In this document: positions 28,101 through 31,100 of the stretch, piece by piece
Position numbering within the stretch: position 1 is the stretch's first letter
How the letters are laid out: each line of letters begins with the position of its first letter
Source: Escherichia coli
Lineage (GTDB): Bacteria > Pseudomonadota > Gammaproteobacteria > Enterobacterales > Enterobacteriaceae
Strand: one strand, 5' to 3'
Length of the DNA: 64,000 bases
Assembly: GCF_003334405.1 (NCBI RefSeq)
Contig: NZ_QOWM01000002.1
Position numbers: made by a program

Positions 28101-31100
28101 GAAACCGCAGACATCGAGGATCTCACGAACACGCGCGTACCCCAGTAAGGTCGGGTTAAGTTTCACAAAGGTGTTGAGCCCTTTTTCTTCCAGCATGTAG
28201 CGGCAAATGGCTTCGATTTCATGCGGAGGACAGCCGTGCATGGTGGAGAGGGTGACGCCATGCACCATACTGGTGGGGATGCGAGCGGGTAAGGCTTGCA
28301 AGCTTTCGCGTTTTTCCTGCAATCCGTGGCGAGCTAAAAATGCGTCATCCTGGAGTAATTTATTCAGCGTATCGCGATATTGAGCGAATTTCGGATGGTC
28401 AGATGCGTCCATCATATTGTCGATGAACTGTTGCATCGGCGGTTGCTTAATACCTTCGAGGTTGTAACCGACGCTCATATTAAAGATGAACGATTTACCG
28501 GAATCAGAAGGCTGGAACATCGCTTCGAGAAGGTGCAGGGCAAACCAGGCTTTGAGGTATTCATCCCAGGCTTTAAGCAGGGTAAATTCGGTAGACCATT
28601 CGGTGTTAAAGCACTCGTCTTCGGCATCGATACAGGGCTTTTCCAGCTCCAGGCGGTCAAGAATTTGGACGGTTTTTAGTTCGATGAAGCGTCCGCCAGT
28701 CAGCCAGGAAGTGACAATATTTTGCGCGAGCTGCGTGTGCGGGCCAGCGGCAGGGCCGACGGGAGTGGCACAGGTTTCACCGAAGACGCTAACAGTTTTA
28801 CCTTTTACAGGTGAGTAAAACTGTTGCTCGGGAATACCAAAGATTGAGCGTTGTTGTTGGTATGCATCAAATATGCGCGTCAAAAGTTCCTCAAACGGAA
28901 TGGGACGCATAATATCCCCCATAACCCTCTCCTTAGCTTATACAGATATCATTGAGTGACCGGTGTTGAGAAATCCGGTGGTTTAGGGGGATAGAGCAAC
29001 AATCGCACCACTCTTGCCAGGTTTGGCGGGAAATATAAAAAAATGTGAGGCGGCTCGAAACTTAAGGGCTTTTTGTGAATGAACTCACAGGTGCTAAATG
29101 AGAATTAAAATCACTCCTGAAAATTATTATTGCCAGCCCATTTATCAATTTTTCTCTTTTCTCAAAATCAGTGATTCCTTATCATTATGATAATGAGTGC
29201 CGGAAGGATTAAATATTTGAACGCAATCGTTTAACTACGTTTTCTAAATTTCAGTATACCTTTCCTTCGCTGTAATAAAGTCGTCCGGAGTATCAATATC
29301 TAAAATTATTTCTGCATTTTCTATTTCGACGGAATAATGATCTCCCATAAGGAGTGCCTGACGCATATTGGTGACATTGGGTCGTTGGATTGCCTGCATC
29401 AGGCATGGTTTTGACACTAAAATCGGATGGCCGGGGATGCCATTATGGAGTGGCAGTATTGCGCCATCATTTCGTAACGACCAGATTTTTCTAAAAATAT
29501 CGATGGTGAGGGTTGGCATGTCACCGTGGGTGAGAAAACAATGTTCTGTTTGCACTGCGGGTACTGCGGCCTTGACGGATGTTAGTAAACCCTGCGCATA
29601 ATCTGGGTTGTGAATAATAGTGATATTGCTCTGGTTCGCATAACGTTCGTGCAGTTCATTACCACGATAGCCGGTGACTAAAATAATTCGGCTACAAAAC
29701 TGCAACGCATTTTTGATACTTGTATCAAGAATTGTTCCCTGTTCCCAGGGTAACATCATTTTCCATTGCCCCATTCTTGATGATAATCCGGCAGCGGTAA
29801 TTATACAGTCGATGGCTGACATAGTGGTTCCATTATTTATAGGGGCTAATAACGCCTGATAATTGCGTTACTTCCTGATGGATTAAGTTGGGGATAATTT
29901 ATCCCAGAGAGGTCATAAAGACTCGTGAAAAGTATAGTTGACCCATCGGCATTAGTCATTGATTTAGGTGCGCAGAAACGTCCCACTGTGATTTCTGTTG
30001 TTGGTGCTGGGGGGAAAACCAGCTTGCTTTTTTGGCTGGCAGAACTGCTCCAGGCTAGCGGCAGGCGTGTGTTAATCACGACGACGACACATATGTTTAT
30101 GCCAACGTCTCACTGGCCCGTGGTTTTCTGTCGTGATCCCGCCATGCTTCCTCATGCGTCTCTTACATCCCCCATTTCATTTTGTTTTCACAGCTGGAAA
30201 GCGAACCAGGGAAAAGTGCAGGGATTTACGCCAGAAGCGATTGATGCACTGGTGCAACGACCAGAGTGTGACGTAATTCTCATTGAAGCAGATGGCTCGC
30301 GTGGAATGCCGTTAAAAGCGCCTGATGAGCACGAACCTTGCATACCCAAAAGCAGTTGCTGCGTGATTGCTGTGATGGGAGGACATACTTTGGGCGCGAA
30401 AGTGAGCACAGAAAATGTCCATCGCTGGTCGCAGTTTGCTGATATTACCGGGTTAACACCTGATGCAACCTTGCAACTGAGCGATCTCGTTGCGCTGGTT
30501 CGCCACCCTCAGGGGGCGTTTAAAAACGTACCGCAAGGTTGTCGGCGAGTCTGGTTCATTAACCGTTTTTCTCAATGTGAGAATGCGATTGCACAAAGCG
30601 AGCTCCTTCAACCGCTGCAACAACACGACGTAGAGGCAATCTGGCTGGGCGATATACAAGAACATCCTGCAATCGCGCGCAGATTTGTGAATTAGCGGCC
30701 CGGGTATTCCGGGTTACTGAAAGGATATCCATTGAGGTTGGTATGAATATTTTCACAGAGGCTGCAAAACTCGAAGAGCAAAATTGTCCGTTTGCTATGG
30801 CGCAAATTGTTGATAGCCGAGGCTCGACTCCCCGCCATTCTGCACAAATGTTAGTGCGCGCCGATGGTTCTATCGTCGGTACAATTGGTGGCGGAATGGT
30901 TGAGCGGAAGGTGATTGAAGAGTCGCTTCAGGCATTGCAGGAACGTAAGCCGCGATTATTCCATGGACGTATGGCTCGTAACGGTGCGGATGCTGTCGGG
31001 TCAGATTGTGGAGGTGCAATGTCAGTATTTATCAGCGTCCATGGTATGCGTCCACGTCTGGTGTTGATTGGCGCGGGGCATGTCAACCGGGCGATAGCCC

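What the first reader, a model, noticed from the sequence alone, without database searches (positions are those of the whole stretch)
28923..29243. Sigma54-type promoter with an upstream perfect CRP site in front of the ygfK-ssnA-ygfM-xdhD operon
The minus strand at 28993-29020 has TGGCA-N7-GTGC and an overlapping TGGTGC-N5-TTGCT, both with the canonical 12-bp GG-to-GC spacing. A perfect CRP consensus (TGTGA-N6-TCACA) lies at 29074-29089 and an AAAATCA direct repeat further upstream (29107, 29164). The cluster also encodes the sigma54 activator YgeV, so these anaerobic purine-catabolism operons may be YgeV/sigma54 controlled with catabolite input.
Basis: inference. Interest (0 to 1): 0.55.

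Follow-up and report, generated by a model that had tools for sequence, protein, structure and literature searches.

The report
Known sigma-54 promoter of ygfK operon
This is the real but already published sigma-54 promoter, with a cAMP-CRP site upstream, that switches on the E. coli ygfK-ssnA-ygfM-xdhD uric-acid degradation genes; comparing species adds the likely activator site and a fixed CRP position.

Summary
The window is the E. coli ygf/yge/xdh purine and urate cluster.

Only the second sigma-54 motif, GTGGTGCGATTGTTGCT (29011..28995, minus strand), is real. It is the motif under a published sigma-54 ChIP-seq peak, listed there as already predicted in EcoCyc. It is conserved before ygfK in 79 of 80 species. 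The overlapping TGGCA-N7-TGC motif is found only in Escherichia and one Citrobacter.

The perfect CRP site (29074-29089) is unique in the window. It keeps a fixed 70.5-71.5 bp distance from the promoter in most Enterobacterales. ygfK is already listed as a CRP target by genomic SELEX.

The two AAAATCA copies lie inside conserved blocks, but the repeat itself is not the conserved unit.

New here:
- A conserved palindrome, TATCA-N3-TGATA (29180-29192), is shared by all four sigma-54 promoters of the cluster. It is the likely YgeV binding site.
- A second conserved CRP-like box lies at 29044-29059.
- CRP boxes sit on one helical face in all these promoters.
- No IHF-like site is present.

The most likely mechanism is YgeV activating Eσ54, with CRP bending the DNA between them. 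The core finding is already known, so interest is low to moderate.

The parts
28995..29011 (-). Sigma-54 (-24/-12) promoter 17-mer GTGGTGCGATTGTTGCT. The -24 GG is at 29009/29008 and the -12 GC at 28997/28996.
   Evidence: The weight-matrix score is 12.16, which ties for third and is listed fourth among about 128,000 positions. The sequence is identical to the motif under ChIP-seq peak OS31 in PMC4591121. A sigma-54 element is conserved 57-129 bp before the ygfK ATG in 79 of 80 species. These columns have the highest information content in the footprint.
29004..29020 (-). It is probably not functional.
   Evidence: The weight-matrix score is 11.72, rank 7. The TGGCA is lost or changed outside Escherichia and Citrobacter MGH106. 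Information content at 29015-29019 is near zero.
28984..28984 (-). Predicted transcription start. It is inferred by placing the C of the -12 GC at position -12. This gives a leader of about 62 nt before the ATG at 28922.
   Evidence: This is an inference from standard sigma-54 promoter geometry. It has not been mapped here.
29044..29059 (.). Promoter-proximal conserved CRP-like box TTCGA-N6-TCACA (written in the promoter direction). Its centre is about -67.5, or 40.5 bp upstream of position 1 of the 17-mer.
   Evidence: It has 2 mismatches to TGTGA-N6-TCACA. Its columns carry more information than those of the perfect CRP site. It is kept at 40.5-41.5 bp even in Aeromonas, Photobacterium and Vibrio. 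In Buttiauxella A111 and Cedecea sulfonylureivorans it is a 1-mismatch CRP site.
29074..29089 (.). Perfect CRP core site TGTGA-N6-TCACA. Its centre is about -97.5, or 70.5 bp upstream of position 1 of the 17-mer.
   Evidence: It is the only perfect match in the window, against 0.07 expected. A site with at most 1 mismatch sits at 70.5-71.5 bp in about 31 Enterobacterales species, and at 72.5-83.5 bp in 5 Morganella loci. The half-sites stay fixed while the N6 spacer varies. ygfK is listed as a CRP genomic SELEX target.
29097..29114 (-). Conserved block C, GTGATTTTAATTCTCATT. Its spacing to the CRP site is fixed.
   Evidence: Phylogenetic footprint and alignments. The block occurs only once in the window. 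The protein that binds it is unknown.
29158..29167 (-). Conserved block B, TTTTGAGAAA. It lies a fixed 24 bp from the palindrome.
   Evidence: The protein that binds it is unknown.
29180..29192 (.). Palindrome TATCA-N3-TGATA, centred at about -202. This is the candidate upstream activator (YgeV) binding site.
   Evidence: The pattern TMTCANNNTGATA gives 6 matches against 0.28 expected. These are four distinct places, three of which lie in the intergenic regions next to ygfK, ygeW/ygeV and ygfT/uacT. One-mismatch copies lie upstream of xdhA. The palindrome is conserved 154-188 bp upstream of the ygfK promoter from Escherichia to Vibrio. It is enriched ninefold upstream of sigma-54 hits in 1.54 Mb.
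20796..28922 (-). The transcription unit served by the promoter: ygfK-ssnA-ygfM-xdhD.
   Evidence: RefSeq annotation. The gene junctions overlap by 4 bp at ygfK/ssnA and ygfM/xdhD, and there is a 50-bp gap at ssnA/ygfM. The four genes co-vary in the YgeV iModulon.
39196..40974 (+). ygeV, the candidate enhancer-binding activator.
   Evidence: Pfam finds PAS, Sigma54_activat (E = 2.8e-70) and HTH_8 domains. The GAFTGA motif is present (string index 346).

Best explanation
The mocA-ygfK spacer holds a sigma-54-dependent promoter for ygfK-ssnA-ygfM-xdhD. These genes carry out the first steps of reductive urate degradation.

Shown: Eσ54 sits on the -24 GG / -12 GC element at 29009-28996 as a closed complex.

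Inferred: transcription starts near 28984.

Inferred, likely: opening of the complex needs an enhancer-binding ATPase. The best candidate is YgeV, which has PAS, AAA+ (GAFTGA) and HTH_8 domains and is encoded in the same cluster. It probably binds the conserved palindrome TATCA-N3-TGATA at about -202. Half-site-like blocks B and C may help.

Shown in vitro at gene resolution, and conserved: cAMP-CRP binds the perfect site at -97.5. It may also bind the weaker conserved box at -67.5.

Inferred: these boxes lie between the activator site and the promoter, they keep a fixed helical phase, and no IHF-like site is present. CRP therefore most likely acts as the DNA-bending helper that brings upstream-bound YgeV to Eσ54. 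This would make the operon respond to both a purine or urate-related signal and the absence of glucose.
For: Sigma-54 in vivo. ChIP-seq peak OS31 (FAT 26) carries exactly this 17-mer, and the site has microarray support (PMC4591121). An independent weight matrix places it joint third, listed fourth, of about 128,000 positions. It is conserved in 79 of 80 species.

CRP. The perfect core is unique in the window. ygfK is on the CRP SELEX list. The spacing is conserved at 70.5-71.5 bp while the flanking sequence and the N6 spacer vary. All four sigma-54 promoters in the window have a CRP-like box with at most 2 mismatches at 40.5, 41.5, 50.5 or 70.5 bp. The background density of such boxes is 5e-4 per position. 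The same holds for the ygeW, uacT and ygfT orthologues in other genera.

Activator site. The palindrome is shared by the regulon's promoters. Its distance to the promoter mostly changes in steps of about 10-21 bp (154/155, 175/176, 187/188), with a few exceptions.

YgeV. The domain set is as expected for an enhancer-binding protein. The operon belongs to the YgeV iModulon, and ygfT expression depends on ygeV.

Physiology. Glucose represses urate degradation.

Other. No IHF consensus lies in the spacer. None of 14 E. coli SNPs falls in the 101 motif bases.
Against: No experiment links YgeV or CRP to this particular promoter in vivo.

In every well-studied case, CRP lowers sigma-54 promoter activity: dctA, glnAp2, glnHp2, ast, nif and Pu (PMC3900584).

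The engineered strain CBT2.0 changes only the ygeV-ygeW spacer. It nevertheless escapes glucose repression of a pathway that needs the ygfK operon. CRP at ygfK therefore cannot be strictly required, at least when the engineered promoter cassette is in place.

Aeromonas, Vibrio and the Klebsiella oxytoca group lack the distal CRP site.

Binding of YgeV to the palindrome rests on comparative inference only.

The transcription start has not been mapped.
Confidence: 0.6

Rival explanations
1. CRP acts as an anti-activator here, as it does at glnAp2, dctA and Pu. Bound cAMP-CRP would contact the alpha C-terminal domain of RNA polymerase, or bend the DNA the wrong way, and so hold Eσ54 poised. The operon would then be damped when cAMP is high.
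For: All characterised CRP effects on sigma-54 promoters summarised in PMC3900584 are inhibitory. A conserved helical phase fits a negative architectural role as well as a positive one.
Against: Urate degradation is repressed, not stimulated, by glucose in the wild type. CRP boxes accompany every promoter of this catabolic regulon, which is what one expects for catabolite activation. The propionate operon shows that a sigma-54 catabolic operon can be under positive CRP control. That precedent rests on the title of Lee et al. 2005 (cited) and on my own knowledge.
Confidence: 0.17
2. The CRP site serves a separate CRP-dependent sigma-70 promoter for ygfK, in tandem with the sigma-54 promoter. 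An example would be one using the TATATT at 29036-29031.
For: A -10-like TATATT lies 45-50 bp downstream of the CRP centre. Tandem sigma-70 and sigma-54 promoters exist elsewhere, for example glnAp1/glnAp2 (mentions the glnAp1 CRP site).
Against: The consensus scan found no sigma-70-type promoter on the ygfK strand. With TATATT as the -10 element, the CRP centre would fall near -57.5, which is not a standard class I position. The TATATT columns are not conserved, whereas the spacing from CRP to the sigma-54 element is.
Confidence: 0.08
3. The activator at this promoter is not YgeV but another enhancer-binding protein, such as NtrC. In that case the palindrome would bind a different regulator.
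For: The neighbouring sigma-54 promoter inside yqeC is induced by nitrogen limitation. The iModulon evidence is only a correlation. No YgeV binding data exist.
Against: The palindrome does not resemble the NtrC site (TGCACCA-N3-TGGTGCA, from my own knowledge). It occurs at all the sigma-54 promoters around ygeV, including the ygeV-ygeW spacer itself, and in many genera. ygfT expression falls in a ygeV mutant.
Confidence: 0.12
4. The upstream motif TGGCA-N7-TGC (29019-29005) is the functional -24/-12 element, or both overlapping motifs are used.
For: Its weight-matrix score (11.72) is almost equal to that of the other motif.
Against: It is not conserved beyond Escherichia and one Citrobacter. 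The ChIP-seq motif call is the downstream 17-mer.
Confidence: 0.03

Closest known systems
The sigma-54 binding site upstream of E. coli ygfK (site OS31 of Bonocora et al. 2015; listed in EcoCyc as a predicted promoter)
   Same: It is the same locus and the same 17-mer, GTGGTGCGATTGTTGCT, in the same orientation and upstream of the same gene.
   Different: Nothing differs at the level of the promoter. That paper did not describe the CRP site, the activator site or the cross-species architecture.
The prpBCDE promoter of E. coli and Salmonella (sigma-54, activator PrpR, catabolite repression through CRP)
   Same: Both are sigma-54-dependent catabolic operons with a dedicated enhancer-binding protein encoded nearby and with cAMP-CRP input. 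The CRP input is stated in the title of Lee et al. 2005, cited. The remaining details come from my own knowledge.
   Different: The activator family member, the inducing signal and the operator sequence all differ. The positions and phasing of CRP sites at prp were not compared here because the paper is not held.
glnAp2, dctA and Pu: sigma-54 promoters influenced by CRP-cAMP
   Same: CRP acts between or near the enhancer and a sigma-54 closed complex. Its effect depends on geometry and on contact with the alpha C-terminal domain of RNA polymerase.
   Different: In those cases CRP inhibits and usually has no strong specific site. Here there is a perfect, conserved, phase-locked site, and the physiology (glucose repression) points to a positive effect.
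IHF-assisted sigma-54 promoters (nifH, Pu, glnHp2)
   Same: A DNA-bending protein site lies between the upstream activator site and the -24/-12 element, about 40-100 bp upstream.
   Different: No IHF consensus is present in this spacer. The site in that position has CRP specificity, so the bend would depend on cAMP.

Membership tests
Sigma-54 (-24/-12) promoter | A GG and a GC dinucleotide 12 bp apart within a TGGCAC-N5-TTGCW-like element that scores like validated sites | tested here: met
   The score is 12.16 on a matrix built from 38 independent sites whose scores range from 8.35 to 20.6. This ties for third, listed fourth, of about 128,000 positions.
Sigma-54 (-24/-12) promoter | Intergenic, facing the gene, at a workable distance from the start codon, and conserved in orthologous loci | tested here: met
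   By inference the transcription start lies 62 nt before the ATG. A sigma-54 element lies 57-129 bp before ygfK in 79 of 80 species.
Sigma-54 (-24/-12) promoter | Occupied by sigma-54 in vivo, with the transcript dependent on rpoN | not testable with these tools
   From the literature only: ChIP-seq fold-above-threshold score 26, and microarray support (PMC4591121). No start-site mapping was found.
Sigma-54 (-24/-12) promoter | A cognate enhancer-binding protein and an upstream activator sequence | tested here: inconclusive
   YgeV has the correct domains. A conserved palindrome shared across the regulon is a strong candidate site. Binding has not been shown.
CRP binding site | TGTGA-N6-TCACA core | tested here: met
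   The core is a perfect match and is unique in the window, against 0.07 expected.
CRP binding site | Half-sites conserved while the spacer drifts, and position conserved | tested here: met
   A site with at most 1 mismatch is found in about 36 loci. It sits at 70.5-71.5 bp in Enterobacterales apart from Morganella, and the N6 spacer varies. No SNPs fall in it among five divergent E. coli alleles.
CRP binding site | Bound by cAMP-CRP, with the gene responding to crp or cya | not testable with these tools
   Genomic SELEX lists ygfK at gene resolution. The pathway is repressed by glucose. There is no promoter-level test.
Class I or class II CRP-dependent sigma-70 promoter | A -10 hexamer placed so that CRP is centred near -41.5, -61.5, -71.5 and so on, and conserved | tested here: not met
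   The scan found no sigma-70-type promoter on the ygfK strand. TATATT would place CRP near -57.5 and is not conserved.
IHF-assisted sigma-54 promoter | A WATCAANNNNTTR site between the enhancer and the promoter | tested here: not met
   No match with at most 1 mismatch lies within 28923-29243.
YgeV regulon | Shares the operator motif and the promoter layout with the other sigma-54 promoters around ygeV | tested here: met
   The palindrome, a CRP-like box and a sigma-54 element occur together at ygfK, ygeW, xdhA and ygfT in the window. They also occur together at the ygfK, ygeW, uacT and ygfT orthologues.
YgeV regulon | Expression depends on YgeV | not testable with these tools
   Membership of the iModulon, and an effect of a ygeV mutant on ygfT only.

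The most novel reading that the evidence does not exclude
Across Enterobacterales, every sigma-54 promoter of the YgeV urate and purine regulon uses cAMP-CRP, rather than IHF, as a phase-locked architectural co-activator. The CRP boxes lie 40.5, 50.5, 70.5 or 82.5 bp upstream of the -24 element. YgeV recognises TATCA-N3-TGATA. This would be a natural, regulon-wide case of CRP activating sigma-54 promoters, which is the opposite of its usual inhibitory effect on them.
Probability: 0.4. Interest if true: 0.45.

Novelty: already known. Interest (0 to 1): 0.25.

Why it matters
The operon encodes XdhD, YgfK and SsnA, which carry out the first steps of the recently described reductive uric-acid degradation pathway of gut bacteria. 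That pathway is relevant to gout and to engineered urate-lowering probiotics.

Knowing the native control logic explains why glucose shuts the pathway off. The logic appears to be sigma-54, YgeV and cAMP-CRP acting together. It also shows which sites to mutate in order to remove that control.

The promoter and the CRP target are both already on record, so the finding itself does not change the picture. The comparative layout gives ready-made hypotheses for defining the uncharacterised regulator YgeV. That layout consists of the candidate YgeV operator, the phased CRP boxes and the absence of an IHF-like site.

Tried and rejected
- The loose pattern TGGCA-N7-TGC is not above chance (5 found, 3.2 expected). 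I therefore built a weight matrix from published sites.
- The upstream sigma-54-like motif was rejected because it is not conserved.
- A sigma-70 promoter towards ygfK was looked for and not found. The only sigma-70-like hit is on the opposite strand and is within chance.
- No intrinsic terminator lies after mocA, and the one terminator-like hit lies inside the ygfK start region.
- Rfam found nothing in 28800-29400.
- The block C sequence was searched elsewhere in the window, but it occurs only once.
- No IHF consensus was found in the spacer.
- A possible leader hairpin, ACCGG/CCGGT at 28979-28959, has look-alikes in other species. RNAalifold gave no consensus structure on 15 leaders, so it is left unexplained.
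- A Fur-box reading of the TTATCATAATGATAA palindrome was considered and dropped. This was judged by eye. Only TATCA and TGATA are conserved, while the central and flanking bases that a Fur box needs vary.
- Three papers were not held: Huo et al. 2006 and Lee et al. 2005 and Reitzer & Schneider 2001. The exact CRP positions that activate or inhibit glnAp2 or prp could therefore not be compared.
- The search for 'uacR' returned only clinical papers.
- The supplement of PMC12507026 holds no readable expression values for ygfK.
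Full report
**Identity of the region.** The 1-kb stretch around the finding matches 5,172 of 5,426 complete E. coli genomes. In the K-12 annotation, 28923-29243 is the spacer between mocA (ygfJ, 29244-29822) and ygfK (25824-28922). Both genes are on the minus strand. ygfK is followed by ssnA, ygfM and xdhD, with junctions that overlap by 4 bp or leave a gap of 50 bp. The sigma-54 activator gene ygeV lies at 39196-40974. It encodes PAS, Sigma54_activat (with GAFTGA) and HTH_8 domains.

**Checking the observation.** All the reported motifs exist.
- Both motifs have the 12-bp GG-to-GC spacing.
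- The loose pattern alone is not above chance.
- A weight matrix built from 38 published sigma-54 sites outside this window places 29011..28995 joint third, listed fourth, of about 128,000 positions. It places 29020..29004 seventh.
- The CRP core at 29074-29089 is the only perfect one in 64 kb, against 0.07 expected.

**What is already published.**
- Bonocora et al. 2015 list a sigma-54 ChIP-seq peak (OS31, fold above threshold 26) with the motif GTGGTGCGATTGTTGCT upstream of ygfK. It is marked as already predicted in EcoCyc. They note that ygfK was one of only five microarray-predicted sigma-54 genes that ChIP confirmed. The same table lists sites at xdhA, ygeW and ygfT.
- Shimada et al. 2011 list ygfK, ygeV<>ygeW and ygfT<>ygfU among the CRP genomic SELEX targets.
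- Lamoureux et al. 2023 define a YgeV iModulon. The gene list given in PMC12133099 includes ygfK, ssnA, ygfM and xdhD. Lamoureux et al. also cite reduced ygfT expression in a ygeV mutant.
- The 2025 pathway paper shows that XdhD, YgfK and SsnA start reductive urate degradation and that glucose represses degradation in the wild type. It refers to a native Crp site in the ygeV-ygeW spacer.

**Comparison across species.** I fetched the ygfK start region from 80 species.
- A sigma-54 element of the form xTGGYRYGAWTGTTGCT lies 57-129 bp before the ATG in 79 of them. These range from Escherichia to Aeromonas, Vibrio, Photobacterium, Ferrimonas and Comamonadaceae. It always corresponds to the downstream motif.
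- The upstream TGGCA motif decays within Escherichia and is absent elsewhere.
- A CRP site with at most one mismatch is centred 70.5-71.5 bp upstream of position 1 of the 17-mer in about 31 Enterobacterales species. In 5 Morganella loci it is centred at 72.5-83.5 bp. Its half-sites are invariant and its N6 spacer drifts.
- The site is missing or degenerate in Aeromonas, Vibrio, Photobacterium and the Klebsiella oxytoca group.

**Footprint of the spacer.** A footprint of 39 non-redundant Enterobacterales sequences shows six conserved islands:
1. the palindrome TATCA-N3-TGATA (29180-29192)
2. TTTTGAGAAA (29158-29167)
3. GTGATTTTAATTCTCATT (29097-29114)
4. the CRP site
5. a box TTmGA-N6-yTCACr (29044-29059)
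6. the sigma-54 element

The two AAAATCA copies fall in islands 2 and 3. However, the conserved cores there are TGAGA and TCTCA, which are inverted relative to each other. The direct repeat is therefore incidental.

Five divergent E. coli alleles carry 14 SNPs in the spacer, and none falls in the 101 motif bases.

**Layout across the regulon.**
- The pattern TMTCANNNTGATA gives 6 matches against 0.28 expected, which are four distinct places. Three of them lie in the ygfK, ygeW/ygeV and ygfT/uacT spacers. One-mismatch copies lie upstream of xdhA.
- In the 80 loci, the sigma-54 promoters of ygfK, ygeW, uacT and ygfT all carry this palindrome upstream. Of 206 palindrome centres, 119 lie 60-330 bp upstream of a sigma-54 hit, although such zones make up only 6.3% of the sequence. 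These counts include orthologous copies and are not independent.
- Each promoter also has a CRP-like box. It lies at 40.5/41.5 bp for uacT, ygfT and xdhA. It lies at 50.5-52.5 bp for ygeW in most genera. For ygfK there is one at 70.5/71.5 bp and the proximal box at 40.5 bp.
- These distances differ by whole helical turns. The background density of boxes with at most 2 mismatches is 5e-4 per position.
- In the ygfK spacer the palindrome and block B form one rigid module. Block C, the CRP site, the proximal box and the promoter form another. The linker between them mostly changes by about 10-21 bp, which is one or two helical turns.
- No IHF consensus lies in the spacer.

**Mechanism.**
- Shown: sigma-54 holoenzyme occupies the -24/-12 element, and CRP selects this region in vitro.
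- Inferred with good support: YgeV is the activator and the palindrome is its main site.
- Inferred with moderate support: CRP acts positively by bending the roughly 200 bp between the enhancer and the promoter in a fixed direction, doing the job that IHF does elsewhere. Glucose repression of the pathway fits this.

Two observations count against a simple version of this picture.
- CRP normally inhibits sigma-54 promoters.
- A strain edited only in the ygeV-ygeW spacer escapes glucose repression. Part or all of the glucose effect may therefore run through ygeV or ygeW expression.

The identity of the protein that binds the proximal box is also open. In two species the box is a good CRP site, but in many others it reads TCACG.

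**Verdict.** The core finding is already known from ChIP-seq, EcoCyc, SELEX and iModulon work. This analysis adds four things: which of the two motifs is the real one, a candidate YgeV operator, a second conserved box, and the phased CRP layout. All of these remain to be tested experimentally.

Noticed in passing
window 30326-30342 (+), inside yqeC: The sequence TGAGCACGAACCTTGCA is the intragenic sigma-54 promoter that Bonocora et al. validated by mutation as the promoter for yqeB. It is induced by nitrogen limitation. The cluster therefore has at least five sigma-54 sites, and not all of them need be YgeV-dependent.
   Followed up: partly
window 38811-38827 (-), ygeW promoter; L012-L079 orthologues: The -12 element of the ygeW sigma-54 promoter reads TTGTT, with GT in place of the canonical GC. 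This unusual form is conserved in 21 of the 24 orthologous promoters listed.
   Followed up: partly
window 28995-29005 (-), and the same positions in L002-L055: The spacer and -12 part of the ygfK promoter (GATTGTTGCT) is almost invariant from Escherichia to Aeromonas. This includes bases that the sigma-54 consensus leaves free. Something else may constrain this stretch.
   Followed up: no
window 37184-37196, inside dpaL (ygeX): A perfect copy of the palindrome (TATCAAGATGATA) lies inside a coding region and overlaps a 2-mismatch CRP-like box at 37190-37205. Whether it is a chance match or an internal regulatory site is unknown.
   Followed up: no
window 25067-25083 (-), inside ssnA: An intragenic sigma-54-like 17-mer, CTGGCACGACTGGCGCA, scores 13.2, which is higher than the ygfK promoter itself. 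It was not found in the main text of the ChIP-seq paper.
   Followed up: partly
window 28959-28979 (-), ygfK leader: A short hairpin (ACCGG, an 11-nt loop, then CCGGT) follows the predicted start. Other species have a hairpin in the same place, and some are followed by a run of T. RNAalifold found no consensus structure on 15 leaders.
   Followed up: partly
window 29012-29243; L002-L081 upstream regions: The distance between the palindrome and the promoter falls mainly into classes of 154/155, 175/176 and 187/188 bp, that is, steps of one or two helical turns. A few loci fall outside these classes (for example 160, 164, 167, 179 and 197 bp). The insertions all lie between blocks B and C.
   Followed up: partly
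window 39028-39040 and 39126-39138, ygeW-ygeV spacer: Two palindrome copies lie 207 and 305 bp upstream of the ygeW promoter and close to the ygeV start. This suggests that YgeV may regulate its own gene as well as ygeW.
   Followed up: no
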